32,000 bases of DNA from Methanococcus maripaludis (lineage in GTDB: Archaea; AGJL01; Methanococci; Methanococcales; Methanococcaceae), in contig NZ_CP026606.1 in the NCBI RefSeq assembly GCF_002945325.1, forward strand, positions 630,001 through 662,000, written 5' to 3'. Below the pieces are notes generated by a model. That model saw only the letters and a program-made list of their open reading frames with translations, did not search any database and was not told the origin of the DNA. This document shows, in pieces, positions 1 to 26,969 of this stretch. The stretch's first letter is position 1. Each line of letters starts with the position of its first letter. The position numbers and the translations under genes were made by a program.

Positions 1-1825
1 CCTGATCGTCAAGTCCATAGTAATAAAGTTCTGCAATTTGGACCCAGTCCTTGGCTTGTGATTCATAATACCATGCTTTATTTTTTCCCTCTATAATTGA
101 ATCCGTATTAGTTAAAGAAATAGCAGTTAACGAATCAATTGCCTTTTGGTAGTAATCAATAGCTTTTTGGTAAGCATTTTCCGAGTCCGTGTCATCTGCA
201 AAATCTCTGTTACTTTCAAGTTCTGCAATTTTTGACAGATAGTCCGCTACATCCCCCTCAAACATTGCCTCTGTTTGTTCTTTTTCTGATGCGGTGAAAT
301 CCCCATCTGCAAGGAAACTATCTATCAATTTTGAGTGGTCTGTAATTACGAAAACATAATTTGACCTAATTGTTATTCGAGGCTTTGAAATAGCCCATAC
401 TGGAAAAGACCTATCAGGATTATCTTCGGTTTGATATATTCTTCCTGAAACTAAAAGGAATGGATATATAGCGACTGTATCCTCATCTGAGTTATAGTCG
501 AGGATCGTGTTAATTACTCCAACCTTTGTAAGGTCCGGTAAAATTCCATCTGATTTTGAATCTGTTGAAATTGTTGAAGTTCCATCTGCATGATAATTAA
601 TTGCAACTAATCTGTAAGATACATTTTGAATTTTCATATCAGTTGAATAAGTATCAAAATATTCAGGATAACCGATAATAGTTACAGAATACCCGGCAGG
701 ATTGTTTAATTCATGAATCATCGAGGATTTAATAGTCATAACAATGTTTGAAGTAGCACCGTTTGCATCGGCCTTAAAAGCAAACATTTCGTCATCGTAT
801 TGATCCCTATATTCAGAACCTAAACCGCCCTCTTTTCCTTTGTGGTCCACGATTCCATCAAGGATTGATTGAGTAGCAGATGTTGTATGCCTATATGAAA
901 TGTAAGATGTGTTCTTCCAGGGGTCATCTTTTCCATCATCGTCATCATCCCATCTAAGAGGCTTATCTTCTTCTTCCTCAGGGGTATGTTCCTCTAAATC
1001 CCATCGGGCCCACTCTGCGTTTTCTTTCCAAACGACTAAATTATGGTTAACTTCGGTGTATATTTCAAAATTTTCTACATCCGCAGTAACAAGAGCGTTT
1101 AAATCATTTAAATCTAAATTTCCGCCCTGAGTCATAACAGCGACTTCCGATGCGTAATCATCAGGAACTTTTAAGATTGCATCAAAAGTATGTTCCTGGT
1201 TTTCAGAAGTAATATTCAAATCAGTTAGTTCATATTTGGATACAACAGTTCCCCCTTGCATAACTTTAAAAGTTACTGAATTTATCTCAGTATGGCCGAT
1301 AACATCTATTGTATATTGATCGTCCCCATAATCGATAACATCTTCGGGGAACATTGAATCTATTGAAGGAGTTTTCACAGTTATTCTAACTGGAAAGACT
1401 GAAAAACCACCTATTTTATCAGGGGCGTTAATTACTTCTTGAACCAATCCCCCAACTTCATATCCTACACAATAATAAGAAACCATATCAGATTTTATCT
1501 CATCTAAAATCCTTTGTGTGGAGTTTGAGGCTTCGATAATTGATTGTTCCTTATCCCCCATTACCGCCTCGGCAGAGGATTGCTCGGTTTCGTTTTGTGT
1601 TCCATTAAACACAATATCTGAGGGCGTATCATCTGTTGTGTTACTTGGCGGTAAATCAACAGTATTTCCACCAGTTAACCAGTCCCATATATCAGTAAAT
1701 AAAGTTCCGGTTCCAGTTCCACCGCCATCATCTATTCCCACATATCCGGTTCCATCCGCAAATACTGAAAATGGAGAAATTAAGACCAGAAAAAGGATAA
1801 ATAAAGATTTAGTTTGTAGCTTCAT
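1..1825 (-). CDS. Secreted protein, 3'-truncated by the window edge (more than 608 aa); not in the supplied ORF track
   Basis: Hand translation of the minus strand from ATG at 1825-1823 (GGGTGG RBS 7 nt upstream) stays open to base 1. N-terminus MKLQTKSLFILFLVLISPFSVFADG is signal-peptide-like. An acidic patch reads EEHTPEEEEDKPLRWDDDDDGKDD. The start overlaps the end of the upstream ORF by 17 nt. Confidence 0.7.
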   Translation of the reverse strand, partial: MKLQTKSLFILFLVLISPFSVFADGTGYVGIDDGGGTGTGTLFTDIWDWLTGGNTVDLPPSNTTDDTPSDIVFNGTQNETEQSSAEAVMGDKEQSIIEASNSTQRILDEIKSDMVSYYCVGYEVGGLVQEVINAPDKIGGFSVFPVRITVKTPSIDSMFPEDVIDYGDDQYTIDVIGHTEINSVTFKVMQGGTVVSKYELTDLNITSENQEHTFDAILKVPDDYASEVAVMTQGGNLDLNDLNALVTADVENFEIYTEVNHNLVVWKENAEWARWDLEEHTPEEEEDKPLRWDDDDDGKDDPWKNTSYISYRHTTSATQSILDGIVDHKGKEGGLGSEYRDQYDDEMFAFKADANGATSNIVMTIKSSMIHELNNPAGYSVTIIGYPEYFDTYSTDMKIQNVSYRLVAINYHADGTSTISTDSKSDGILPDLTKVGVINTILDYNSDEDTVAIYPFLLVSGRIYQTEDNPDRSFPVWAISKPRITIRSNYVFVITDHSKLIDSFLADGDFTASEKEQTEAMFEGDVADYLSKIAELESNRDFADDTDSENAYQKAIDYYQKAIDSLTAISLTNTDSIIEGKNKAWYYESQAKDWVQIAELYYYGLDDQ

Positions 1826-9463: not shown

Positions 9464-9825
9464 GTTCGAGCAATTTCTTCGTAGTGTCTTTTCGTTTCCT
9501 CAATATGAAGCATTATCAAAGTATGATCCATATCAAAACTAACAACATTAGGTTTTAAATGATATCTGGCATCTAACTCAACCAATACCTTACCTGCTTC
9601 TTTTTCATCCTTAACAATCAATACGACAGTATCAAAATGTTTTGTTTTACTATGACAGCCCATTCCTGCAATTATTTGATCTGGTTTGTAACCTAACTCA
9701 TTAAGAGCAGCAGTTATTTCTTCCAATTCTTCTTCTGAATTGTAAATAATATCCAACATTTTTCTATCTTCGATACCCATCACTTTTTTAAAATCAACTG
9801 CAACAACTTCCATTTTAATCACCAT
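9460..9825 (-). CDS. Hypothetical protein (121 aa)
   Basis: ORF track entry. Abuts the upstream ORF with no gap. Confidence 0.6.
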   Translation of the reverse strand: MVIKMEVVAVDFKKVMGIEDRKMLDIIYNSEEELEEITAALNELGYKPDQIIAGMGCHSKTKHFDTVVLIVKDEKEAGKVLVELDARYHLKPNVVSFDMDHTLIMLHIEETKRHYEEIART

Positions 9826-10067
9826 TTAAACTTCAATTCTAAATCTATCGCTCATTATCATACAATTATGATAAATTACAGTTTTTTCTTCATTATTTGC
9901 GTGAATACAAAGCCATTTACCAGTTTTACTTACAACCGCAAGGACATTTTTGTTAATTTCGCCTTTTTCTTTCAATTGCTTGATAACTGATTGTAACTCT
10001 GCATTTTCTTTAGAAAAATTTCTTTTTCGAGTTTTTTTATTTTTAAAATGTTTTTTAGCCATTTTTC
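9820..10067. repeat. 248-bp direct repeat, copy A
   Basis: Aligns base-for-base with 10666-10913 at an 846-nt offset, with about 11 mismatches by eye. Confidence 0.9.
9826..10062 (-). CDS. Hypothetical basic protein, paralogue A (78 aa)
   Basis: MAKKHFKNKKTRKRNF... Near-identical (2 aa differences) to the ORF at 10672-10908. Confidence 0.65.
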   Translation of the reverse strand: MAKKHFKNKKTRKRNFSKENAELQSVIKQLKEKGEINKNVLAVVSKTGKWLCIHANNEEKTVIYHNCMIMSDRFRIEV

Positions 10068-10486: not shown

Positions 10487-10660
10487 TTAAACGCTCTTTA
10501 TTTCCTCAAAAAGTTCTTTTGAAATCTCAATGAGTTTCACACCTTTTTCCCTAAATTCTTCAACCGTAACATTGAATAGTAAGGGCGGTAAACTGGACTC
10601 GTGAAGACAGAATATTTCAATTTCACCATCATAACGTTTTAATCCTAAATAATATCGCAT
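10487..10660 (-). CDS. Possible small protein (57 aa, below the ORF-track cutoff)
   Basis: Hand translation: MRYYLGLKRYDGEIEIFCLHESSLPPLLFNVTVEEFREKGVKLIEISKELFEEIKSV. It has the same GGTGGTGAAATG junction as the neighbouring genes. Confidence 0.35.
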   Translation of the reverse strand: MRYYLGLKRYDGEIEIFCLHESSLPPLLFNVTVEEFREKGVKLIEISKELFEEIKSV

Positions 10661-10665
10661 TTCAC

Positions 10666-10913
10666 CACCATTTAAACTTCAATTCTAAATCTATCGCCCA
10701 TTATCATACAATTATGATAAATTACGGTTTTTTCTTCATTATTGGCATGAATACAAAGCCATTTACCAGTAGAACTCACAACAGCAAGGACATTTTTGTT
10801 AATTTCGCCTTTTTCTTTCAATTGCTTGATAACTGATTGTAACTCTGCATTTTCTTTAGAAAAATTTCTTTTTCGAGTTTTTTTATTTTTGAAATGTTTT
10901 TTAGCCATTTTTC
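10666..10913. repeat. 248-bp direct repeat, copy B
   Basis: See copy A. Confidence 0.9.
10672..10908 (-). CDS. Hypothetical basic protein, paralogue B (78 aa)
   Basis: Same length and sequence as 9826-10062 except K/S and S/G substitutions. The ATG at 10908 overlaps the stop of the 458-aa ORF. Confidence 0.65.
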   Translation of the reverse strand: MAKKHFKNKKTRKRNFSKENAELQSVIKQLKEKGEINKNVLAVVSSTGKWLCIHANNEEKTVIYHNCMIMGDRFRIEV

Positions 10914-14186: not shown

Positions 14187-15512
14187 ATGGGAAAACTTCC
14201 AGATAATGAAATGTCTAAAATTATTAACAAAATTTTAGATTTAACTTATATTGATGAAAATAAGCTCAAAATTAGAAAAAATAAAAGCCTTTTTGAATTT
14301 GAAACTTATTTATCATTATTAAATTGTGAATTACTCAAAGATGAAAATATTTCTAAAAAAATAACGGATTTAAAATACTGTACGATGATTTCAAGTGATA
14401 TTAACAATTTTGAACTTATTCTTGATGTTTTAACTGAACTAAAAACTAAAAACTTGAATAATTATAATGAATTCAAAAATATTCTTGATTTAAAAATTAA
14501 ATCGTTAAAAAGTGAGTTTAAGCAGCATACCCTGTATGAAATGTACATTCCACTAAATTTAAAAACTGAATTCACCATTGAAAAAATAAAATGTAGAAAT
14601 TTTTGTGCAGAAATTGTGAAACATAGAACGATAAAAGGAATTATAAATCAGCCAAAATTAAACGAAAGTATCAAAAAAGCCCATGAAATAGACTCACAAT
14701 GTGAAATAAATGTGAATTTCGAAGAAAGTGAATTTTTAAAAATAACTGTTAATAGTCAAACAGATGCCCATGCATGCCTAACTGCACGTAAAATTCAAAA
14801 TTTATTCATTGGCATGGTTGCATATGTTATTACCAAAAATTCAAGCTACAGAACACTTAAAGGCCCAACCGAAGCCATATTCCCAATATATCCGCAAATA
14901 ATGATAGAAACAATAGGTACCCAATTTGTTACTGTATTTGTGGGAGACATAACCCGTAAAAGAATACCAAAAGACTGTATTATACCTATTGAAAAGTTTT
15001 ATGAAACAGAATTAAATTATTTAATCCAATTCTATAATTCAAAACATCCTGATATTCAAAAAAAACTAGAAGAAATATTTACAAACTATGCTTGCGGGGT
15101 TTATCAAGATAAAAAGACGGATTCATTTTTTAATTTATGGGTGGCATTGGAACGAGCAACAATGGTGTCCGATATAGGAAAACATGACATGATCCCTAAA
15201 ATTTCAAAAGCATTATTTAATGAAAGAAATCCATTATATGCCCACGTTATTGAAAATCTGTATAATGTTAGAAACAATTTTATTCATGAAGGCGGATCTA
15301 TTTCCCAATACGATAGAAATGCATTAAAATACTGTGTTGATAATCTGATTGAATTTTTAATAAATGAGTTAAATTCGTATTCCCTTAACGAAATAAGAAC
15401 AATTTATGAATATTTAACCAAAAATGGTGATAATTTAGAAAACATTCAAAAGACCATTGAACATGTCATAGAATTAAAGAATAATTGGAAAGGGGAAATT
15501 TCAGAAAAATAA
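14187..15512 (+). CDS. HEPN-domain protein (442 aa from ATG 14187), possibly ApeA-like; candidate RNase or abortive-infection effector
   Basis: C-terminal NLYNVRNNFIHEGG is a canonical R-N-x3-H (Rx4-6H) HEPN motif in a helical context. AGGTGGGG RBS precedes ATG 14187. The N-terminal roughly 330 aa are unrecognised. Confidence 0.75.
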   Translation: MGKLPDNEMSKIINKILDLTYIDENKLKIRKNKSLFEFETYLSLLNCELLKDENISKKITDLKYCTMISSDINNFELILDVLTELKTKNLNNYNEFKNILDLKIKSLKSEFKQHTLYEMYIPLNLKTEFTIEKIKCRNFCAEIVKHRTIKGIINQPKLNESIKKAHEIDSQCEINVNFEESEFLKITVNSQTDAHACLTARKIQNLFIGMVAYVITKNSSYRTLKGPTEAIFPIYPQIMIETIGTQFVTVFVGDITRKRIPKDCIIPIEKFYETELNYLIQFYNSKHPDIQKKLEEIFTNYACGVYQDKKTDSFFNLWVALERATMVSDIGKHDMIPKISKALFNERNPLYAHVIENLYNVRNNFIHEGGSISQYDRNALKYCVDNLIEFLINELNSYSLNEIRTIYEYLTKNGDNLENIQKTIEHVIELKNNWKGEISEK

Positions 15513-15550
15513 CCCCATTTTTAAATTTTAATAACCATTCCCATTAAATT

Positions 15551-15586
15551 TTAAATTACTCTTTTTAAATTGATTGAAAAAAGAAA
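15551..15586. repeat. 36-nt direct repeat, copy 1; putative bidirectional oligo-T terminator
   Basis: ttaaattactctttttaaattgattgaaaaaagaaa matches 17628-17663 at 35 of 36 positions. It sits between convergent stop codons (15512 and 15607). Confidence 0.8.
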
Positions 15587-15606
15587 AGAGAATATAATTT
15601 TAAAAA

Positions 15607-15888
15607 TTATAATCCTAACGCTGATCTAGGCAACACTCGGAGCTTATTAGTTTCACTTTTAACAGAATTTACTACATTTTTTTCAAGAATGTCTGTTAAT
15701 GTTTTAAGTTCTTTTTCTGACAACGTGCATATATCTGACTGGCTATTTTCTGAAAGATAAAACTTGACATTACACTTATTTTCATTATTTAATTTACCAA
15801 TAAGAACTTTTGAAACTTTTTCCAATTCAATATATTTAGTATCATGTTCATTTTCAATTTTAAATAATTTCATTTTTTTCACCGTCAT
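15607..15888 (-). CDS. Hypothetical protein (93 aa)
   Basis: ORF track entry. Its ATG directly follows the stop of a 33-aa upstream ORF (TAAATG). Confidence 0.5.
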   Translation of the reverse strand: MTVKKMKLFKIENEHDTKYIELEKVSKVLIGKLNNENKCNVKFYLSENSQSDICTLSEKELKTLTDILEKNVVNSVKSETNKLRVLPRSALGL

Positions 15889-15990
15889 TTACTTCTTTTT
15901 ATTATATTTCACGATAGTTTCTTTGTTTGTTCGTGTAACCGTTCCAATCTTTTTATTTTTTCTAATTATCAGAGTCGTTTTTTTCGTCAT
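15889..15990 (-). CDS. Possible 33-aa highly basic peptide
   Basis: Hand translation: MTKKTTLIIRKNKKIGTVTRTNKETIVKYNKKK. AGGAGGT lies 6 nt upstream of the ATG. Its stop abuts the next ATG. Confidence 0.3.
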   Translation of the reverse strand: MTKKTTLIIRKNKKIGTVTRTNKETIVKYNKKK

Positions 15991-16560
15991 TAAATAACCT
16001 CCTTTATTTTAAGTATAAGCTTCGCTAACTTGTTAAACAACAAAATTAGGCGTAATTAGTCCCCAATATAATGAAAACTAATGAGTAATGTATAAATACA
16101 AATTTTCAAAAAGAGATATACGGGATCGATCAAAATCCGCATATCAGAATATGTCTTTTTACAATGGCATCACCTCTGATGTAAATACCTTTTTTAGATA
16201 ATTTTATAGGTATTTGATTTTCTGATAAGATAAATATTATGTTAATAATTTATATACTTGTCTTTAGTGCCCTATATATACTAAACTAAACAAGACGATA
16301 GAGCTTTTTTCAATAACTGCTAAATTGCATATGAATAATGCTTTTTGCAGTAATCTACTTTTAACCCCAATCTAATTAAAAAAAGAGTTATTTAAATATT
16401 ATCGTAAAATGTAAAGTAGATTAAAAATTCAAAAAATAGCCTTCTTTTTTAATTTAAAGCATATTACCCTCATTAAATTCAATTAAAATAATTATTCTTC
16501 GATAAAATATTAAACTTGCCATTCTGGTTTTAACATTAAATTTACAACATAATTATAAAA

Positions 16561-16596
16561 TTATATATACGATTTTTAATAAATGGATATCCATTT
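16561..16596 (+). promoter_or_regulatory. TATA-like box (TTATATATA) plus a perfect 16-bp palindrome AAATGGATATCCATTT upstream of the nuclease-like gene
   Basis: TATA-like box at 16561-16569. Palindrome at 16581-16596, at about the expected transcription start site. GAGGGGA RBS, then ATG at 16619. Confidence 0.5.
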
Positions 16597-16618
16597 GATT
16601 TAAAAAAGAGGGGAGTAT

Positions 16619-17167
16619 ATGTTAGGAATTATCAAATCAGCAGTTTCAAAACTTATGGATGCATTTACTAAAAAATCAAGATCTGAAAAAATCGATGAAA
16701 TTAGAGAAGAAATTAAAAAAGATCCAACATCATTTGAAAAGGGAACAGCTTTTGAATTATGTTGTTTGGACATATTTTCAGAAAAGGACTTTGACTTACT
16801 TGAAATGACACATAATCCGGATTCTGCAAATGGCAGATTTGTTAAAAGTGATTTAAACCCGGATTTACAGTTTAAAAATAAAAAAACAGATAGTGTTTTT
16901 AGTGTTGAATGCAAATACAGAAGCAGTTTATATAAAGGGGCTTTTAGCTGGGCTAAAAATAAAGCTCAAGCTGACAGATACAGAGAATATGAAAAAGAAA
17001 ATGAAATTTCCGTATTTGTTGCAATGGGGTTAGGTGGAACTCCTGAAAAACCAGAACAAATTTTCTTAATGCCTTTAAAAGAAATAAAATATAATTCACT
17101 CTACCCTAGTGTTTTAAACGATTATGAAATAAAAGAAGCTAAAGATGTATTTAAAATATTAAACTAA
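16619..17167 (+). CDS. PD-(D/E)xK (restriction-endonuclease-fold) nuclease-like protein (182 aa)
   Basis: GTAFELCCLDIF helix, then NPDLQF ... SVFSVECKY, giving the D ... E-x-K arrangement typical of Mrr/restriction-endonuclease cores. Confidence 0.65.
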   Translation: MLGIIKSAVSKLMDAFTKKSRSEKIDEIREEIKKDPTSFEKGTAFELCCLDIFSEKDFDLLEMTHNPDSANGRFVKSDLNPDLQFKNKKTDSVFSVECKYRSSLYKGAFSWAKNKAQADRYREYEKENEISVFVAMGLGGTPEKPEQIFLMPLKEIKYNSLYPSVLNDYEIKEAKDVFKILN

Positions 17168-17217
17168 TCCAAATAATTAATTATTTTTTTAATTTTTACA
17201 GTTATCTGGTGGATAAA

Positions 17218-17619: not shown

Positions 17620-17627
17620 ATTTTGAT

Positions 17628-17663
17628 TTAAATTACTTTTTTTAAATTGATTGAAAAAAGAAA
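17628..17663. repeat. 36-nt direct repeat, copy 2; putative bidirectional terminator
   Basis: ttaaattactttttttaaattgattgaaaaaagaaa. It sits between convergent stops (17619 and 17698). Weaker similarity continues about 25 nt further in both copies. Confidence 0.8.
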
Positions 17664-17697: not shown

Positions 17698-18720
17698 TTA
17701 AACTCTTACCTTAGAGTGAGTTTCATATTTATTTCCCGAATGTTTAGATTCCAGATAATCATCATCCAGTATTTTAATAACTGTAGCATAGTTTTTGCTA
17801 TTAATTATTAAATTATCATTCTCATCAAATTCAATTTCATCTAATTTAAATTCCGATTTTGTATCAGATATTGAATTATGATCCCAAGTTTTGTAACTTT
17901 TAGTATTCAATACCGTAGCAAATTTTTTAGTAAGATCTTTATTACGTTTGGATAAACTTACCAGTACTTCAAGATTATCTTTATCGATAATTTTTTGCTC
18001 AACCAATTTATCTTTTTTATCATCAATTTCTTTTTTGTATCCTTCATGGAAATCAAAAAATAATTCAATACCATTTTTGTTAAATACATACATAATTTCA
18101 GAGATATCTTCAGAAGCCATCTCTTTACCCTTATAAATCATTCCATCAAATTTATCTTCAAGTGCAAAAATACTATCTTCGATTTTATCGAATTTACCAT
18201 TATTTCTATTAAATACCATGTTTAAAGTGCCTTTTCCAAGCAATTTAAGAGGAGAATGTTTTTTAATAAATATCAAATTTTTAGATATTTCTTTTTTGTT
18301 ATCAAAGATATCAATGGTTACAATATATCCCCAAATTTTTTTTATGTTTTTTAATGCATTGCTATTTAAAAACTCGGGATCCCCGTAAGTTTTATCATAA
18401 ATATCTTCAAAATGGGGAATATCTTCTGCAGACATGACTTCAATAACTTTTTTATCATATTTCGCCATTGGAGAATATTTTGGGTAAAAATATTCATCAC
18501 CACATCGAATTCCCACTTCAAGTTGGGCAATTTTCAATAATTCCTGCTCTATTGCGTGATTTGAATTAAATTCTGTTCTCCAAATTTTATGTGTTATCAA
18601 TTCTTTCTTTTTAGTTCGTTCTACAAAATTCAAAGTTATATTACCCAAATTAAGATTTTCGTCTTTTAACATCTTGTATATATCAGGCATTTTTAATATA
18701 GTAGCGACATTTATTTCCAT
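17698..18720 (-). CDS. Cytoplasmic 340-aa protein, second gene of a two-gene operon (KwaB/DUF4868-like by architecture only)
   Basis: ORF track entry. Starts 3 nt after the stop of the 4-TM gene. Lys/Glu/Asp-rich. No catalytic motif recognised. Confidence 0.7.
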   Translation of the reverse strand: MEINVATILKMPDIYKMLKDENLNLGNITLNFVERTKKKELITHKIWRTEFNSNHAIEQELLKIAQLEVGIRCGDEYFYPKYSPMAKYDKKVIEVMSAEDIPHFEDIYDKTYGDPEFLNSNALKNIKKIWGYIVTIDIFDNKKEISKNLIFIKKHSPLKLLGKGTLNMVFNRNNGKFDKIEDSIFALEDKFDGMIYKGKEMASEDISEIMYVFNKNGIELFFDFHEGYKKEIDDKKDKLVEQKIIDKDNLEVLVSLSKRNKDLTKKFATVLNTKSYKTWDHNSISDTKSEFKLDEIEFDENDNLIINSKNYATVIKILDDDYLESKHSGNKYETHSKVRV

Positions 18721-18723
18721 AAT

Positions 18724-19401
18724 CTACACTTCTTTAAAGATATTATTTCCATACATATGTTTTAATTGTAATTTATCATCGATTTTCAGATCTTTTTTAG
18801 TGATTATCAAAGCATCTGAATAAGTTTTAGGATTTGGTGACATATTGGCTCCTTTTTTAATGGATGCACGATACATTTTGTATCCAAAAGACGTTAAAAC
18901 AGGATTTATAAACACTAAATCAGTAGAAATTGCTACCGAACGCATAATTCCTAAAAATAATATAAAAGCTAAAATATTTGTGAATTTACATAAATCAAAT
19001 CCCATAAATGCAATCATATATGGCACAAAATAATCCAGCGCATCTTTTGTACGATTTTCAAAATCTACCACCACATATTCTTTTGCAGAAGTAGTTCTTG
19101 TACAATACCAAAATAAAGCCCAAAATATCAATGTAGGAGTAAAAAATACAATAATAAAAACTATTCCAATAGTTAAAGGAATTGAAACATTTCCCATACC
19201 CACAGTTTGTGGAATTGTGGAAGTACAGTTTATAAACGGCATTTCTATACAAGAGCACGTTTCTGTAAAATAAATTGCGGAAAATATCAGAAATAATGGC
19301 AAATAAGAAAACATGAATAAACCGGTATTTATGGTCCAGCCTATACTCCAGCCTATAAGTTTATCCCAACGATTTTTTTGATTTTTCCCCTCAGTCCCCA
19401 T
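18724..19401 (-). CDS. Four-TM membrane protein (225 aa), first gene of the two-gene operon (KwaA-like by architecture only)
   Basis: Hydrophobic helices LFMFSYLPLFLIFSAIYF, IPLTIGIVFIIVFFTPTLIFWALFWY, YFVPYMIAFMGF and ILAFILFLGIMRSVAI, then a soluble roughly 50-aa tail. A TATA-like catatatat lies about 45 nt upstream. Confidence 0.7.
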   Translation of the reverse strand: MGTEGKNQKNRWDKLIGWSIGWTINTGLFMFSYLPLFLIFSAIYFTETCSCIEMPFINCTSTIPQTVGMGNVSIPLTIGIVFIIVFFTPTLIFWALFWYCTRTTSAKEYVVVDFENRTKDALDYFVPYMIAFMGFDLCKFTNILAFILFLGIMRSVAISTDLVFINPVLTSFGYKMYRASIKKGANMSPNPKTYSDALIITKKDLKIDDKLQLKHMYGNNIFKEV

Positions 19402-19521
19402 GAAAACACCTAAATTGTACCGAAGAGGTCTTTATCTCTTCATATATATGATAGTTTTCATGACGTAATATTTTAAGAATTAGTTGTACGATTGTAAAAA
19501 TAATTTTAAGATAGCATTAAT

Positions 19522-20451
19522 TTATCGAGGACCGATAAATCTATCCCCATTATAGTGTATCATGTGATCAGGATTTTCTGAAATCCAAACTTCAGTATCC
19601 CATGCAATATCTGCAACATATTTTTTGAAAGTAGCTTTATCCCTAAAGCAGCTCACATATATTTTTCCACACTTACAGTCTTCAAGCATTTCTTCAAGTT
19701 CATAGTACCGTTTATCTGAAACTGGGCCATGAGAAGTAACTGCTTCAATTAAATAAATCCAGTTATTCTTTTCATCATACAAAACAACATCTGGAAGCTT
19801 ATCATGTTTAGTCATTGGAATTCCAAGCTTTTCAAGTTCTTCATCCAATTTATAAAGGTTTTTATGTGCGGTATCCCCAACATAAAGAACTTTTGAACCA
19901 CCTGCAAATCTAGGTCCAAATTCTTCAATAATTTCTTTTTGTAATTCATTATGTTCTCCAGAAGAAAATTCAAGTTCCGTATCATCAACTTTAACTGAAA
20001 TTTTATGAATTTCCCTAATTCCCTGATATTTTTCAGAAAGTGAAGTTTTATTCTCTAAAAACCATTCAACAGACTTTTCAAAATCATCAGTTTCGTATGT
20101 TTTTAAAACTTCTAAAAATTCAGGAGTTAAGGAATAAACTGTTTTACCACTGTTTGTAGGTCTTTTTGGATCATCTCGATTCCTTTCAACAATTCCAGCA
20201 TGTTCAAACTGGTGTATTGTCTGCCGCCTTATTGTTTCCCTGCTATTTTCAGCATAAGTATATCCATAATTTTCAGAAATAAACAATAAAATATCATGAA
20301 TTCTAACTAAATTATCTTCTGAATCTTTCCAATCACTGTTTTCTTGGATATTTGCAAGTGCTAAAAGAGTATATGCACTTCTATTATTTTGCTGCTTCAC
20401 TGGAAGCTCAAATTTCTTTAAAATAGTTAAAGCTTCGTCTAACTTTCCCAT
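19522..20451 (-). CDS. Type II restriction endonuclease, BsuBI/PstI-like (309 aa from ATG 20451; alternative TTG at 20466)
   Basis: Lies immediately downstream of the methyltransferase. PD...E core LPDVVLYDEKNNWIYLIEAVTSHGPV. N-terminal wHTH-like region. The size matches R.PstI-class enzymes. Confidence 0.6.
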   Translation of the reverse strand: MGKLDEALTILKKFELPVKQQNNRSAYTLLALANIQENSDWKDSEDNLVRIHDILLFISENYGYTYAENSRETIRRQTIHQFEHAGIVERNRDDPKRPTNSGKTVYSLTPEFLEVLKTYETDDFEKSVEWFLENKTSLSEKYQGIREIHKISVKVDDTELEFSSGEHNELQKEIIEEFGPRFAGGSKVLYVGDTAHKNLYKLDEELEKLGIPMTKHDKLPDVVLYDEKNNWIYLIEAVTSHGPVSDKRYYELEEMLEDCKCGKIYVSCFRDKATFKKYVADIAWDTEVWISENPDHMIHYNGDRFIGPR

Positions 20452-20468
20452 ACTACCCTTCCACAAAA

Positions 20469-21977
20469 TTAGATATTAAATATATTATTGACAATATCAT
20501 TACATTTATCAACACTTAAATCATTTTCTTTTAGAATTAAGTCTCCAATTCTGACAATGAGTTCTTTTTCGGGAAGAGGCATTGAATTTACTTCTGTAGC
20601 ATTTACCTGAGTAGATCCATTTACAATTCTATAATATTTATCTAAGATATCACAATTAAAGAGAGCATAGAGACCAAATAATTCGTTTAATTCCATATTA
20701 CCTGATTCTTTCACAATATAATTAAGATGATTTTCAAATCCAATCTGTGGATAATTAAATTCTTTTGAAGAATAAATTGCAGCTTGAAGCCTTCTTTTCT
20801 CTTCTTTTGAAGTAAACCGTTTCAATAATAAATAATCCTTATTTTTCAAAAGTAACTTTTTAGATTCAGAATTATTCAAAATATACGGGGGTTTTCCGTC
20901 CTTTGTAACTGGAAATCTTATTAATCCGTCATTAAAATTATGTAACCACAAAAGAGGAACAGTTTCATTCGAGGGTTCATTTTTTAAATATTCTAATGAT
21001 CGAAAATCGACTACAGGCCCGGTTTTTAACTTATATCCTAGTTTAACTAAATTATACTTCCAGTTTGACATTAAATTCATGATTTTTACGTCTTCTTCGT
21101 TTGTAGGTAACAATATGAATTTATTTTCATTTTTCGTTATTACTGTATCATAAGGCATGTAAATTTGAAAAATATTTTTGGATAAATCAGAATCTGTACT
21201 TTCTGAAATACACATCATATCTTCATTTAATCTTGATTTTACAGCTTTTAAAATAATTGTTTCCTGCAATACCTGATCGTTTCCAAACACGTTTTTCCTT
21301 GAAACAAACAAATGTATTCGAGAAATATTTACATTTTCAAGGAACCATGTTCTAAATTTTTTAAAATAAAGACCCGATGTAAAGCTTCTTGGATTAATAA
21401 ATATGAACTCTCCATTTTCCTTTAACAATTTTAAAGCCATTGCCATGAATAAAAAATAAATATTGGGCTGACCGTGCACAATAGAATTCATAGCTACAGC
21501 TTCTTCGCAAGACTTGCTTATTTTTTTGTAAGGTGGATTAGAGATTACAAGATCGTAACGCCCAACAGAGTCTGAATTCCAGTTATCTACATTCAATGTT
21601 ACAAAATTGCCATGTATAATTTTATATGTGAATTTTATGGGCGAATTTTCTAATTTATGTTTAATATATTCCATTGATTTAGTTAAAATGGGTAAAACAT
21701 CAGAATCTACTTCATAAAGATCAATATGGAGTCTTTTTAAATTTTTATGGGTTTTAAATTTATCAACAAGTGCTGTCGCTAAAATACCGGTGCCTGAACC
21801 ACAATCTAAAATATTTAATTCTTCAAAATTTTCATAGTCGCCGGATAAACTAGCCATAAAGTCGGCAACAGCTGCAGGTGTAAAAAATTGGCCTATTTTC
21901 TTCCTATCTTTCTTAGACTTCTTTTCCAAATATTTATTCGTGTATTCTTGGACTTCATTTACAAGTGATTCCTGCAT
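20469..21977 (-). CDS. N6-adenine DNA methyltransferase, gamma class (M.PstI/Eco57I-like, 502 aa)
   Basis: SAM motif ILDCGSGTGIL precedes the catalytic motif DLVISNPPYKK. FFTP near the N-terminus. Confidence 0.9.
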   Translation of the reverse strand: MQESLVNEVQEYTNKYLEKKSKKDRKKIGQFFTPAAVADFMASLSGDYENFEELNILDCGSGTGILATALVDKFKTHKNLKRLHIDLYEVDSDVLPILTKSMEYIKHKLENSPIKFTYKIIHGNFVTLNVDNWNSDSVGRYDLVISNPPYKKISKSCEEAVAMNSIVHGQPNIYFLFMAMALKLLKENGEFIFINPRSFTSGLYFKKFRTWFLENVNISRIHLFVSRKNVFGNDQVLQETIILKAVKSRLNEDMMCISESTDSDLSKNIFQIYMPYDTVITKNENKFILLPTNEEDVKIMNLMSNWKYNLVKLGYKLKTGPVVDFRSLEYLKNEPSNETVPLLWLHNFNDGLIRFPVTKDGKPPYILNNSESKKLLLKNKDYLLLKRFTSKEEKRRLQAAIYSSKEFNYPQIGFENHLNYIVKESGNMELNELFGLYALFNCDILDKYYRIVNGSTQVNATEVNSMPLPEKELIVRIGDLILKENDLSVDKCNDIVNNIFNI

Positions 21978-21998: not shown

Positions 21999-22886
21999 TC
22001 ATTTCTTATTATTCATAACTCGTAAATACTCTTTTTTCCTTGATTCCTTGTTCGAGTGAACGTATCCCGAAGTAGTATTCAAGTTTGAATGACCCATTAT
22101 TTTTGAAAGAACAATCAAGTTCATTTCATCTTCACAGGCTAAAGTTCCAAAGGTATGCCTGAAAACGTGTGGAGTAACATCAAAAGGAATTTTATCTTTT
22201 GTAACTTCCTTTAAATAGTCTCTAAATTTATCTATTGCGTAATTTGTAACCTTTTTACCATTCTTAGTTACAAAAAAGCAGTCTGTTTTTAAATTTAAAT
22301 TCTCTCTGTATTCGATATAATTTTTAAGATATCCTAAAAGTTCGTTATCGATAAATACATATCTATCTTTTCCGCCTTTTCCATCCCGAATGTAAATTGA
22401 GCGGTCTTCTAAATCTACATCATTTAAAAGTATGTTTTGAAATTCAGAAATCCTAACACCCGTTTTTAAAAGAAATAGTGTGTAAACATAATAATCATAG
22501 TCCATTACTTTTGCTAAAACTGTTTGAACTTGTTTTTCACTTAAATTCAATCTCTCCTTTTTTTCAAATTTGAGAGTTTTTACAAAGGTTTTCACTGGAT
22601 TTTTAAATAAATACTGATGTTCTACCGCCCATTCATAAAATCGATTAACATCATTTAATCTTTTGATTTTAGTATTCTTATTTACAGGCCTTCCATCTTC
22701 GGCTTTGTTATATCCATTATAGAAGTTTATTGCATCTTCTATTGTGATATTTTCCCAGGTTTTATTTTCGTCAAAATATCTTGTAAATGCCTTTAAACCG
22801 GATTTATAGTATTTTACAGTATTTTGACTGTGACCTGAATGAAATTTTAAGAATTTTTCAACAAGTTTTTCTGAAGATTCATCCAT
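21999..22886 (-). CDS. Tyrosine recombinase/integrase (XerC/D-phage integrase family, 295 aa)
   Basis: Catalytic residues in order: GVRISE (R), GKGGKDR (K), HVFRHT (HxxR), GHSNL (H), SGYVH (Y). Confidence 0.9.
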   Translation of the reverse strand: MDESSEKLVEKFLKFHSGHSQNTVKYYKSGLKAFTRYFDENKTWENITIEDAINFYNGYNKAEDGRPVNKNTKIKRLNDVNRFYEWAVEHQYLFKNPVKTFVKTLKFEKKERLNLSEKQVQTVLAKVMDYDYYVYTLFLLKTGVRISEFQNILLNDVDLEDRSIYIRDGKGGKDRYVFIDNELLGYLKNYIEYRENLNLKTDCFFVTKNGKKVTNYAIDKFRDYLKEVTKDKIPFDVTPHVFRHTFGTLACEDEMNLIVLSKIMGHSNLNTTSGYVHSNKESRKKEYLRVMNNKK

Positions 22887-23528: not shown

Positions 23529-23616
23529 ACTCGATGATGATTGTCATCCCTGCTGACTTTAATTTGTAGTATTAGTTGCAAATTAAAGAAATGATGAATA
23601 CAGGGTTACTGAGAGT
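23529..23616 (+). ncRNA. C/D-box sRNA-like RNA with an internal hairpin (double K-turn candidate)
   Basis: C box ATGATGA at 23534-23540. 12-nt spacer. D' CTGA at 23553-23556. 10-bp stem CTTTAATTTG/CAAATTAAAG (23557-66 and 23579-88). C' ATGATGA at 23591-97. 11-nt spacer. D CTGA at 23609-12. Terminal ACTC/GAGT pairing. TATA-like ttatatat at 23503-10. T-run after 23620. Confidence 0.5.
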
Positions 23617-26135: not shown

Positions 26136-26969
26136 ATGGTTGTAAAAATAGGTATTTTAAAATGTGGAAACATAGGAATGTCCCCTGTAGTTGATCTTTG
26201 CTTAGACGAAAGAGCTGACAGAAACGACATTGATGTTAGAGTTTTAGGTAGCGGAGCTAAAATGGGCCCTGAACAAGTAGAAGAAGTTGCTAAAAAAATG
26301 GTTGAAGAAATAAAACCAGACTTCATTGTATACATTGGTCCAAATCCTGCTGCACCAGGTCCAAAAAAAGCTAGAGAAATCTTAAGCGCTGGCGGAATCC
26401 CTGCAGTTATCATTGGTGACGCACCAGGTATCAAAGACAAAGACGCTATGGCAGAAGAAGGACTCGGATACGTTTTAATCAAATGCGACCCTATGATCGG
26501 TGCTAGAAGACAGTTCTTAGACCCTGTTGAAATGGCAATGTTCAATGCTGATGTAATCAGAGTTTTAGCTGGAACCGGTGCTTTAAGAGTTGTACAAAAC
26601 GCTATTGATGATATGGTATTTGCAGTTGAAGAAGGAAAAGAAATACCATTACCAAAAATCGTAATCACCGAACAAAAAGCAGTTGAAGCAATGGACTTTG
26701 CAAACCCATACGCAAAAGCAAAAGCTATGGCTGCATTTGTAATGGCTGAAAAAGTAGCAGATATTGATGTTAAAGGATGTTTCATGACCAAAGAAATGGA
26801 AAAATACATCCCAATCGTTGCATCCGCACACGAAACAATAAGATACGCTGCAAAATTAGTTGACGAAGCTAGAGAGTTAGAAAAAGCAACAGACGCTGTT
26901 TCAAGAAAACCTCACGCAGGCGACGGAAAAATCTTAAACAAATGTAAATTAATGACAAAACCAGAATAA
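26136..26969 (+). CDS. mtd: F420-dependent methylenetetrahydromethanopterin dehydrogenase
   Basis: Full-length 277-aa protein recognised as Mtd (MVVKIGILKCGNIG...DFIVYIGPNPAAPGP...). GGTGA RBS. Confidence 0.93.
   Translation: MVVKIGILKCGNIGMSPVVDLCLDERADRNDIDVRVLGSGAKMGPEQVEEVAKKMVEEIKPDFIVYIGPNPAAPGPKKAREILSAGGIPAVIIGDAPGIKDKDAMAEEGLGYVLIKCDPMIGARRQFLDPVEMAMFNADVIRVLAGTGALRVVQNAIDDMVFAVEEGKEIPLPKIVITEQKAVEAMDFANPYAKAKAMAAFVMAEKVADIDVKGCFMTKEMEKYIPIVASAHETIRYAAKLVDEARELEKATDAVSRKPHAGDGKILNKCKLMTKPE

What the first reader, a model, noticed from the sequence alone, without database searches (positions are those of the whole stretch)
17698..19401. Four-TM protein plus 340-aa soluble protein operon: Kiwa-like (KwaA/KwaB) architecture in an archaeon
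Seen: a 225-aa protein with four hydrophobic helices is followed 3 nt later by a 340-aa charged protein with no recognisable catalytic motif. The pair has its own TATA-like box and is flanked by a terminator repeat and an R-M system. Established: the bacterial Kiwa defence system is a roughly 200-aa 4-TM KwaA plus a roughly 310-aa DUF4868 KwaB, in this order. Inference only: sizes, order and context match, but I cannot verify DUF4868 homology by eye. If it is homologous, it is an archaeal provirus-borne Kiwa. If not, it is an unassigned membrane-sensor/effector pair.
Basis: inference. Interest (0 to 1): 0.65.

Follow-up and report, generated by a model that had tools for sequence, protein, structure and literature searches.

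The report
Kiwa defence system in Methanococcus
The two genes are a genuine but divergent copy of the known Kiwa anti-virus system (membrane sensor KwaA plus DNA-binding KwaB), carried next to a restriction-modification system on a plasmid integrated in the chromosome of the methanogenic archaeon Methanococcus maripaludis; this is a solid annotation of a known kind of system, not a new kind.

Summary
Two minus-strand ORFs of 225 aa (18724-19401) and 340 aa (17698-18720) lie 3 nt apart. The Kiwa interpretation is confirmed by sequence and by fold. The 225-aa protein hits 13 PADLOC KwaA models (best 5e-26), Pfam PF28043 and the solved E. coli KwaA. Its AlphaFold model (four TM helices plus a cytoplasmic beta-domain) finds only KwaA structures in the PDB (9mrx_A, 3.9e-11). 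The 340-aa protein hits Pfam PF16162 KwaB/DUF4868 (1e-18), and its model (pLDDT 91) finds only KwaB structures (7e-12). The host is Methanococcus maripaludis: core genes are 96-99% identical to a named strain that has the same locus. Both genes are under purifying selection (dN/dS about 0.2). The "provirus" part is not supported. The carrier is a 27-kb integrated element with a pT26-2-plasmid core gene (T26-6p) and a tyrosine integrase, bounded by 19-nt direct repeats, one of which overlaps a C/D-box sRNA gene. Archaeal Kiwa is already counted in defence-system surveys, so this is a new member of a known kind. Side observation: 8 of 9 sampled related Kiwa loci touch an R-M system, and six of them are embedded inside type I R-M operons.

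The parts
18724..19401 (-). kwaA: 225-aa four-TM membrane protein, the predicted sensor and anchor of Kiwa
   Evidence: It hits 13 PADLOC KwaA models, best 5e-26, and carries precomputed PF28043 KwaA. NCBIfam NF041622 scores 6.2e-20 but 71.8 bits, below the 100-bit cutoff. phmmer against PDB KwaA 9mrg_A gives 6.5e-9, and the family profile against PDB KwaA gives 1.6e-23. The AF2 model has pLDDT 78.7. Its top 7 Foldseek PDB hits are all KwaA, best 9mrx_A at 3.9e-11 with TM 0.69/0.78.
17698..18720 (-). kwaB: 340-aa soluble protein with an N-terminal Rossmann-like domain and a C-terminal DUF4868 domain, the predicted DNA-binding effector
   Evidence: Pfam PF16162 scores 1e-18 and 68.4 bits against a cutoff of 26.3, covering residues 127-325. 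It has 93 full-length relatives in 1.84 billion representative proteins. The family profile against PDB KwaB 9mrx_K gives 4.3e-19. The AF2 model has pLDDT 91.4. Its top 6 Foldseek PDB hits are all KwaB at 7e-12 to 4e-10, and the next hit is at 1.4e-2.
19402..19521 (-). REase-kwaA spacer holding a T5 tract after the REase stop, a TATA-like box (19441-19450) and the SD AGGTG (19407-19411); candidate own promoter of kwaAB
   Evidence: The sequence is. It is 131/136 identical to the other M. maripaludis strain, whereas flanking coding DNA has dS of 0.26-0.46. Function is inferred only.
17627..17663 (-). 37-nt repeated element with an oligo-T tract 35 nt after the kwaB stop; candidate archaeal terminator
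   Evidence: The second copy, at 15550-15586, is 97% identical and also follows a minus-strand ORF. A similar sequence follows kwaB in L013.
19522..20466 (-). Context: BsuBI/PstI-family type II restriction endonuclease directly upstream of kwaA
   Evidence: PF06616 scores 5e-61 and PF17728 scores 1.8e-49. PADLOC REase_II scores 2e-109.
20469..21977 (-). Context: N6-adenine DNA methyltransferase, partner of the REase
   Evidence: PF07669 scores 1e-18 and PF02384 scores 5e-14. PADLOC MTase_II scores 8.5e-123.
21999..22886 (-). Context: intact tyrosine integrase of the carrier element
   Evidence: PF00589 scores 1e-31 and PF02899 scores 1.6e-8.
23530..23548 (+). Context: right copy of the 19-nt direct repeat CTCGATGATGATTGTCATC, the candidate attR and right end of the 27,063-bp element
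   Evidence: The second exact copy lies 3,514 nt left of the window start, between the ArdC-like gene and a DNA ligase gene. Only 1 of 200 Markov simulations reached 19 nt. L013 has a copy with one mismatch at the same place.
2..1825 (-). Context: T26-6p-like core gene of the pT26-2 plasmid family, truncated by the window edge
   Evidence: PF22265 scores 1.8e-16, PF22092 scores 1.4e-12 and PF20984 scores 8e-4. The full 686-aa gene is seen in L023-L025.

Best explanation
This is a functional two-gene Kiwa anti-mobile-element system of Methanococcus maripaludis. It is carried as cargo, directly after a type II R-M pair, on an integrated pT26-2-family plasmid. Shown here: both proteins are homologous to KwaA and KwaB in sequence and in fold, both ORFs are intact, both are under purifying selection, and the locus is conserved in a second strain. 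Inferred by homology to the E. coli system (PMC11785009): KwaA sits in the cytoplasmic membrane as a tetramer, with a cytoplasmic beta-barrel formed by intracellular loop 1 and the C-terminus. That barrel docks KwaB dimers, building a membrane-tethered array. Perturbation of the envelope at a site of virus attachment, DNA entry or plasmid transfer is sensed by KwaA. KwaB is then released or activated locally, binds the incoming DNA without sequence specificity through its DUF4868 domain, stalls replication, and so blocks late gene expression without degrading DNA. The neighbouring R-M pair would cut unmodified incoming DNA, giving two independent layers of defence. The Gam/RecBCD interplay described in E. 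coli probably does not apply here, because archaea are not known to have RecBCD (my own knowledge, not tested here).
For: KwaA homology: PADLOC 5e-26, PF28043, PDB KwaA 6.5e-9 and 1.6e-23, and only KwaA folds found by Foldseek. KwaB homology: PF16162 1e-18, PDB KwaB 4.3e-19, and only KwaB folds found. The gene order kwaA then kwaB with a 3-nt gap matches the canonical operon. The model topology matches the published description of four TM helices plus a beta-domain from ICL1 (strand 107-116) and the C-terminus (strands 175-224). The near-invariant KwaB family residues are all present in the window protein (Y132, D192, F218, E219, F222, S325, K337), as is the C-terminal DDYLxS motif. Three of six E. 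coli DNA-contact positions are conservatively kept, two as basic residues: N134 to K154, D169 to E188, R233 to K265. dN/dS is 0.19 for kwaA and 0.21 for kwaB at 15% and 34% protein divergence between two strains. The setting is a defence context on a mobile element. In the E. coli study, 53% of dereplicated Kiwa loci are on MGEs.
Against: No functional data exist for any archaeal Kiwa. Identity to the characterised E. coli proteins is only about 21-22%. The E. coli KwaA-KwaB interface residues are mostly not conserved: only K75 to R102 is conservative, while D80, H156, Y181 and F183 differ. Three of six DNA-contact residues are lost: R142 to G, R167 to A, K187 to N. The PADLOC KwaB model hits only weakly (6.2e-5). 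NCBIfam has no KwaB hit, and its KwaA hit is below cutoff. Oligomeric assembly could not be modelled. The archaeal envelope differs from the E. coli envelope in which membrane sensing was shown; that M. maripaludis has ether lipids and an S-layer with no outer membrane or murein is from my own knowledge.
Confidence: 0.8

Rival explanations
1. The pair is a true Kiwa homologue, but its selected role is plasmid-plasmid competition rather than antiviral defence of the cell. It would serve as entry exclusion or stabilisation of the pT26-2-family element against rival mobile elements.
For: It is cargo of an integrated plasmid whose conserved core is proposed to be a DNA/protein transfer apparatus. 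E. coli Kiwa systems reduce conjugation more than two-fold. The element also carries an ArdC-like anti-restriction gene.
Against: This role is not exclusive of antiviral function, and the mechanism would be the same. All tested Kiwa systems protect against phages. No transfer system has been demonstrated for pT26-2 elements.
Confidence: 0.2
2. Kiwa here is functionally coupled to the adjacent R-M system rather than merely co-located with it. It could act as a back-up that fires when the R-M system is inhibited (as PrrC does with EcoprrI), or as a partner that shares DNA-mimic inhibitors (as Kiwa does with RecBCD in E. coli).
For: Eight of nine sampled Kiwa loci in this part of the family touch an R-M system. 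Six lie between hsdS and hsdR of a type I operon; in four of these (L018, L020, L022, L026) the kwaB stop overlaps the hsdR start by 4 nt. Two, including the window, lie next to a type II pair. Inhibitor partitioning between Kiwa and RecBCD is in the E. coli study. That archaea lack RecBCD, and the PrrC-EcoprrI parallel, are my own knowledge.
Against: Defence genes cluster in islands without functional coupling. The sampling was of nearest relatives, not random. One locus (L027) has no R-M system. In the window the conserved 120-nt spacer with its own TATA-like box and a T-tract suggests separate transcription. The R-M type differs between loci. In E. coli the DNA mimic Ocr was tested alongside Gam, and only Gam is reported as inhibiting Kiwa.
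Confidence: 0.15
3. The pair is an inactive or decaying remnant of a horizontally acquired bacterial Kiwa that cannot work in an archaeal membrane.
For: It is highly divergent from characterised members. The interface residues and some DNA-contact residues are not conserved. kwaB is the most divergent gene of the island between strains, at 66% identity.
Against: Both ORFs are intact in two strains, with dN/dS about 0.2 and dS up to 1.05, which means long-term purifying selection. The family's near-invariant residues are retained. The models are confident. At least one of the nearest relatives is from an archaeal MAG, and all are intact and operonic. The promoter region is strongly conserved.
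Confidence: 0.05

Closest known systems
Kiwa (KwaA/KwaB) of E. coli O55:H7 RM12579; PDB 9mrg, 9mrr, 9mrx, 9mtn, 9nyu; Zhang, Todeschini et al., PMC11785009
   Same: It is a two-gene kwaA then kwaB operon. KwaA has four TM helices plus a cytoplasmic beta-domain. KwaB has an N-terminal Rossmann-like domain plus DUF4868. Both predicted folds match only these structures in the PDB. It is carried on a mobile element in a defence context.
   Different: Identity is about 21-22%. KwaA is 30 aa longer, with an N-terminal helix and a Cys-rich extracellular loop 1. KwaB is 25 aa longer. The interface residues are not conserved. The host is an archaeon with a different envelope and, from my own knowledge, no RecBCD. 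It sits directly downstream of a type II R-M pair.
R-M-embedded Kiwa loci in metagenomes and MAGs, at least one archaeal (L015-L022, L026; e.g. 'DUF4868 domain-containing protein [Euryarchaeota archaeon]' MBU4536014.1)
   Same: These are the nearest relatives outside Methanococcus, at 30-36% KwaB identity and 28-32% KwaA identity. They have the same gene order and are tightly linked to an R-M system.
   Different: They lie inside type I R-M operons (hsdM-hsdS-kwaA-kwaB-hsdR) rather than after a type II pair. Their KwaA is shorter (174-191 aa) and lacks the N-terminal extension and the long extracellular loop 1.
pT26-2 family of integrated plasmids of Thermococcales and Methanococcales (Badel et al. 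2019, PMC6972569)
   Same: The carrier element encodes a T26-6p-like core protein and an intact XerC-like (type II) tyrosine integrase. It is about 27 kb, is flanked by direct repeats, and lies in M. maripaludis, a known host of this family.
   Different: Published Methanococcales members integrate into tRNA-Ser or tRNA-Leu genes. Here no tRNA is present, and the repeat overlaps the 5' end of a C/D-box sRNA-like gene. Only one of the seven core genes was identified here.
PrrC anticodon nuclease embedded in the EcoprrI type Ic R-M operon (recalled from my own knowledge, not tested here)
   Same: A second defence module is inserted between the specificity and restriction genes of a type I R-M operon, as in the Kiwa relatives L016-L026.
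   Different: The proteins and mechanism are unrelated, and the window's own Kiwa is adjacent to, not inside, a type II R-M pair.

Membership tests
Kiwa defence system | Adjacent, co-oriented kwaA and kwaB genes | tested here: met
   18724-19401 (-) is followed after 3 nt by 17698-18720 (-). The same pair occurs in strain GCA_013761045.1.
Kiwa defence system | KwaA sequence family (Pfam PF28043, NCBIfam NF041622, PADLOC KwaA) | tested here: met
   It hits 13 PADLOC models, best 5e-26 and nearly full length. It carries precomputed PF28043. PDB KwaA scores 6.5e-9 and 1.6e-23. The NCBIfam equivalog is significant (6.2e-20) but scores 71.8 bits, below its strict 100-bit cutoff.
Kiwa defence system | KwaA architecture: four TM helices plus a cytoplasmic beta-barrel from ICL1 and the C-terminus | tested here: met
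   The AF2 model has helices at 6-49, 74-103, 118-132 and 140-160 and strands at 107-116, 175-183, 193-201, 210-217 and 221-224. Foldseek gives 9mrx_A at 3.9e-11 with TM 0.69/0.78. This is a prediction, not an experiment.
Kiwa defence system | KwaB DUF4868 domain (PF16162) | tested here: met
   E = 1e-18 and 68.4 bits against a cutoff of 26.3, covering profile positions 2-183 of 186.
Kiwa defence system | Full-length KwaB fold (N-terminal Rossmann-like domain plus DUF4868) | tested here: met
   The model has pLDDT 91.4. Its top 6 PDB hits are all KwaB over about 350 columns, with TM 0.58-0.66. The family profile against 9mrx_K covers residues 31-312 of 315.
Kiwa defence system | Basic DNA-binding channel residues of KwaB | tested here: inconclusive
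   Three of six E. coli contact positions are conservatively kept (K154, E188, K265) and three are not (G162, A186, N216). The alignment is at 22% identity.
Kiwa defence system | KwaA tetramer and KwaB dimer supercomplex | not testable with these tools
   No multimer prediction is available. The E. coli interface residues are mostly not conserved, as expected for a co-evolving interface.
Kiwa defence system | Protection against viruses or plasmids | not testable with these tools
   This needs an experiment.
pT26-2 integrated plasmid family (carrier element) | Core gene t26-6p | tested here: met
   In window 2-1825 (-), PF22265 scores 1.8e-16 and PF22092 scores 1.4e-12.
pT26-2 integrated plasmid family (carrier element) | All seven core genes present | not tested
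   The other ORFs at 2-13 kb have no Pfam, PHROG or NCBIfam hits. No reference pT26-2 protein sequences were available for comparison.
pT26-2 integrated plasmid family (carrier element) | Methanococcales branch: intact type II tyrosine integrase and att site in tRNA-Ser or tRNA-Leu | tested here: not met
   The integrase is intact, but no tRNA is found at either end. The candidate att site overlaps a C/D-box sRNA-like gene. The element is therefore best called pT26-2-related.
Head-tailed or other archaeal provirus | Capsid, portal or terminase genes, or similarity to known viruses | tested here: not met
   No hallmark genes were found. The only hits are marginal (Phage_tube_C 25.2 bits, with no matched stretch passing on its own; tail chaperone PHROG 1.3e-3). 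The 458-aa and 502-aa proteins have no tblastn hit in 50,697 phage records. KwaB has no close relative in IMG/VR.

The most novel reading that the evidence does not exclude
In archaea, Kiwa may be an obligate partner of restriction-modification rather than a stand-alone system. Most sampled relatives are inserted between hsdS and hsdR of type I operons, and the Methanococcus copy follows a type II pair. KwaB might hold incoming DNA at the membrane for the restriction enzyme. Alternatively, it might act as the decoy or back-up when DNA-mimic anti-restriction proteins disable R-M, taking the role that RecBCD plays for Kiwa in E. coli.
Probability: 0.15. Interest if true: 0.6.

Novelty: new member of a known kind. 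Interest (0 to 1): 0.3.

Why it matters
It turns two 'hypothetical proteins' of a genetically tractable model methanogen into a confidently assigned Kiwa system. It also shows that the strict NCBIfam KwaA cutoff is missed and the PADLOC KwaB model hits only weakly. In the literature searched here I found no experimental study of an archaeal Kiwa. Kiwa is proposed to sense envelope deformation, so a copy working behind a very different archaeal envelope would test how general that sensing principle is. It also documents defence cargo (R-M plus Kiwa plus a strain-variable block) on a pT26-2-family plasmid; the 2019 family description does not contain the words restriction, defence or defense. 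None of this changes the picture of what Kiwa is.

Tried and rejected
1. Provirus hypothesis. Pfam, PHROGs and NCBIfam on the large ORFs at 2-13 kb gave no capsid, portal or terminase hit. tblastn of the 458-aa and 502-aa proteins against 50,697 phage records found nothing. An IMG/VR scan with KwaB found nothing. I rejected the provirus reading in favour of a pT26-2-related integrated plasmid.

2. Species identification through genome contigs. KwaB found no locus. Mtd found only Methanothermococcus at 86% identity, because the pattern scan missed the M. maripaludis representative. The species was settled instead by the identical locus in GCA_013761045.1.

3. Synteny with Methanothermococcus Ax23, to find an empty integration site. 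Only Mtd and the genes to its right are shared, so this was uninformative.

4. tRNA att site. None was found in the window or the extensions.

5. Positive selection on KwaB as the cause of its 66% identity. I rejected this as the main cause: dN/dS is 0.21 and dS is also 2-4 times higher than in neighbouring genes. That fits an older or recombined allele.

6. The first residue mapping, made with mafft --keeplength, mis-numbered KwaB. It was redone.

7. Direct phmmer of KwaB against the PDB found nothing. A family profile was needed.

Full report
**Observation.** One runs 18724-19401 (225 aa) and the other 17698-18720 (340 aa). They are separated by 3 nt (TAG-ATT-ATG), and a GAAGTG Shine-Dalgarno-like motif sits just upstream of the second start. 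The first protein is strongly hydrophobic. The second has no hydrophobic segment and about one third of its residues are charged. The stretch at 14-19 kb is the most AT-rich part of the window, at 25-27% GC against 29-39% elsewhere.

**Is it Kiwa? Sequence evidence.** Yes, for both proteins.
- The 340-aa protein hits Pfam PF16162 (KwaB/DUF4868) at E = 1e-18 and 68.4 bits, against a gathering cutoff of 26.3.
- The 225-aa protein hits 13 PADLOC KwaA models, the best at 5e-26 over almost its full length.
- It also carries PF28043 (KwaA) in the precomputed annotation of the public collection.
- By plain phmmer it matches the solved E. coli KwaA chain 9mrg_A at 6.5e-9.
- An exhaustive HMMER scan of 1.84 billion representative proteins found 93 KwaB relatives. 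Most are about 310-320 aa and align over nearly the whole length, none above 36% identity outside the protein's own cluster.
- A profile of 57 of these sequences hits the solved KwaB (9mrx_K) at 4.3e-19 over residues 31-312 of 315.
- A 50-sequence KwaA profile hits the solved KwaA at 1.6e-23 over residues 4-193 of 195.

**Is it Kiwa? Fold evidence.** The AlphaFold2 model of KwaB is confident (pLDDT 91.4, pTM 0.88). In a Foldseek search of the PDB its six best hits are all KwaB structures (E 7e-12 to 4e-10, TM 0.58-0.66 over about 350 columns), and the seventh hit has E = 0.014 and TM 0.1. The KwaA model (pLDDT 78.7) shows four long helices, a strand in intracellular loop 1 and four C-terminal strands. 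That matches the published description of four TM helices plus an ICL1/C-terminal beta-barrel. Its seven best PDB hits are all KwaA, led by KwaA from the KwaA-KwaB complex (9mrx_A, 3.9e-11, TM 0.69/0.78, rmsd 3.8 Å).

**Conserved residues.** All near-invariant residues of the KwaB family are present (Y132, D192, F218, E219, F222, S325, K337), as is the C-terminal DDYLxS motif. Of the six E. coli DNA-contact residues, three are conservatively retained (K154, E188, K265) and three are not. The E. coli KwaA-KwaB interface residues are mostly different. That is unsurprising at 21-22% identity, but it means assembly is inferred rather than shown.

**Host and functionality.** Mtd, a methanogenesis enzyme, lies at 26136-26969. 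A named Methanococcus maripaludis assembly (GCA_013761045.1) has the same locus in the same order.
- Core genes are 96-99% identical at protein level.
- The integrase is 94.6% identical, the REase 95.2%, the MTase 88.8%, KwaA about 84% and KwaB only 65.6%.
- Nei-Gojobori estimates give dN/dS of 0.19 for kwaA and 0.21 for kwaB, so both are under purifying selection.
- kwaB's synonymous divergence (dS 1.05) is 2-4 times that of its neighbours (0.25-0.50), which points to an older or recombined allele rather than merely fast protein evolution.
- In KwaA, divergence concentrates in extracellular loop 1, TM2 and the C-terminal beta-region. In KwaB it concentrates at residues 46-90 and 241-285.

**Expression signals.** The 120-nt spacer between the REase stop and the kwaA start contains a T5 tract, a TATA-like CATATATATG at 19441-19450 and an AGGTG ribosome-binding site at 19407-19411. 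It is 131/136 identical between the two strains, much better conserved than the adjacent coding DNA. A 37-nt element with an oligo-T tract follows kwaB at 17627-17663 and recurs at 15550-15586 behind another minus-strand ORF. These features fit an own promoter and terminator, but their function is untested.

**Context: not a provirus.**
- Directly upstream on the same strand lie a BsuBI/PstI-family REase, its N6-adenine MTase and an intact tyrosine integrase.
- The ORFs at 2-13 kb have no capsid, portal or terminase signature. The two largest unannotated proteins have no match in 50,697 phage records.
- The truncated ORF at 2-1825 (-) carries the T26-6p Ig-like domains: PF22265 at 1.8e-16 and PF22092 at 1.4e-12. 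T26-6p is a core protein of the pT26-2 plasmid family, which is known as integrated plasmids in several M. maripaludis strains.
- Extending leftwards with contigs that carry the same genes revealed an ArdC-N/MPTase-PolyVal gene and then a DNA ligase gene.
- An exact 19-nt direct repeat (CTCGATGATGATTGTCATC) lies at window 23530-23548 and again 3,514 nt left of the window. Both copies are in the intergenic gaps where boundaries are expected, and they delimit a 27,063-bp element. One of 200 Markov simulations reached this length, and the other strain has a copy with one mismatch.
- No tRNA gene is present at either end, unlike the tRNA-Ser or tRNA-Leu targets published for Methanococcales members.
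- The right copy coincides with the 5' end of a C/D-box sRNA-like gene.
- The block at 14190-17171 is absent from the other strain and is replaced there by different genes. The cargo region is therefore strain-variable.

**Relatives.**
- The five nearest KwaB relatives outside Methanococcus (30-36% identity) all have kwaA-kwaB inside a type I R-M operon, or in one partial contig directly before hsdR. The order is hsdM-(x)-hsdS-kwaA-kwaB-hsdR. A sixth such locus was found through KwaA. In four of them (L018, L020, L022, L026) the kwaB stop overlaps the hsdR start by 4 nt.
- At least one of these is from a Euryarchaeota MAG. Others carry genes that I associate with archaea (Fae, TYW3, HFX_2341_N, DUF2115); that association is my own knowledge.
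- A Halalkalibacter locus has a reversed kwaB-kwaA pair next to a type II R-M system, and one locus has no R-M system.
- These KwaA proteins are shorter (174-191 aa). They lack the N-terminal extension and the 28-aa Cys-rich extracellular loop 1 of the Methanococcus protein. The solved E. coli KwaA does have a Cys-containing loop at that position.

**Mechanism (inferred from PMC11785009).** KwaA tetramers in the membrane dock KwaB dimers through the cytoplasmic beta-barrel, forming an array. Envelope perturbation at the site of virus attachment, DNA entry or plasmid transfer activates the complex. KwaB then binds the incoming DNA non-specifically through DUF4868, stalls replication forks and blocks late expression without cutting DNA. 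The homology, architecture, intactness and selection are shown here. The assembly, the trigger and the DNA binding are inferred. The Gam/RecBCD interplay probably has no counterpart here, because archaea are not known to have RecBCD (my own knowledge).

**Novelty.** Kiwa is a well-characterised system. A published survey already reports that Kiwa occurs in archaea, at a higher per-Mbp frequency than in bacteria. The sister-strain proteins are in NCBI as hypothetical proteins with the Kiwa Pfam domains precomputed. The NCBIfam KwaA model falls below its cutoff and the PADLOC KwaB model hits only weakly, which explains the lack of a name. This is a new, divergent member of a known kind. In the accessible literature I found no description of Kiwa embedded in type I R-M operons and none of Kiwa in methanogens. 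That recurrent linkage is the most interesting lead, but it may only reflect defence-island clustering.

Noticed in passing
window 23530-23615 (+): A C/D-box sRNA-like gene lies here. Its layout is CTCG, C box ATGATGA, a 12-nt guide, D' box CTGA, a 34-nt spacer with a 10-bp hairpin, C' box ATGATGA, an 11-nt guide, D box CTGA, then GAG, with a CTC/GAG terminal stem. Rfam sR55 scores 24 bits, below the gathering score of 35, with E = 7e-4 in a 341-nt search. Its first 19 nt are the right copy of the element's direct repeat. The integrase therefore seems to target a C/D sRNA gene rather than the tRNA-Ser or tRNA-Leu genes reported for Methanococcales pT26-2 elements.
   Followed up: partly
L015-L022 and L026 (related loci): In six related loci kwaA-kwaB sits between hsdS and hsdR of a type I R-M operon. 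In four of them (L018, L020, L022, L026) the kwaB stop overlaps the hsdR start by 4 nt. Three also carry a DUF4062/HATPase_c_4 gene between hsdM and hsdS, and single loci add a PIN_12 or a SLFN_AlbA_2 gene. The architecture resembles prrC in EcoprrI. I found no description of it in the searchable literature.
   Followed up: partly
window 17698-18720 compared with L013 10001-11026: kwaB is the outlier of the shared island between two M. maripaludis strains. It is 65.6% identical at protein level with dS 1.05, against 89-95% and dS 0.25-0.5 for the R-M genes and integrase. dN/dS stays at 0.21. This suggests allele replacement or long-maintained alleles.
   Followed up: partly
window 14190-17171: This is a strain-variable cargo block. 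It is absent from GCA_013761045.1, where five other genes occupy the site, and it lies mostly between the two copies of the 37-nt terminator-like repeat (15550-15586 and 17627-17663). It holds a 452-aa ORF, a 93-aa ORF and a 182-aa ORF with no PADLOC or NCBIfam hit and only sub-threshold Pfam or PHROG matches, such as DUF234 at E = 0.028. Their position makes them candidate unknown defence genes.
   Followed up: partly
window 18724-19401, KwaA residues 47-73: Extracellular loop 1 of this KwaA carries three cysteines and two N-X-S/T sequons (NCT and NVS). Both sequons are kept in the other strain (NCT and NQS), although this is the most divergent part of the protein. The R-M-embedded relatives lack the loop entirely. 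The loop has low pLDDT. It could be a glycosylated surface-exposed sensor loop, which is speculation.
   Followed up: no
L023 10530-12587 (about 2.5 kb left of the window start): A 685-aa ArdC-N plus MPTase-PolyVal protein, of the anti-restriction type found on conjugative plasmids, sits at the far end of the same element, just inside the left repeat. The element thus carries both defence and counter-defence genes.
   Followed up: no
window 9814-10067 and 10660-10913: A 254-nt direct repeat at 95% identity, spaced 846 nt apart, lies inside the conserved backbone of the element. The other strain appears to have one copy in the aligned region.
   Followed up: no
L028 3658-5312 (Halalkalibacter wakoensis): This Kiwa locus has the reversed gene order kwaB then kwaA. 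It lies next to a C5-methylase and NgoFVII type II R-M pair.
   Followed up: no
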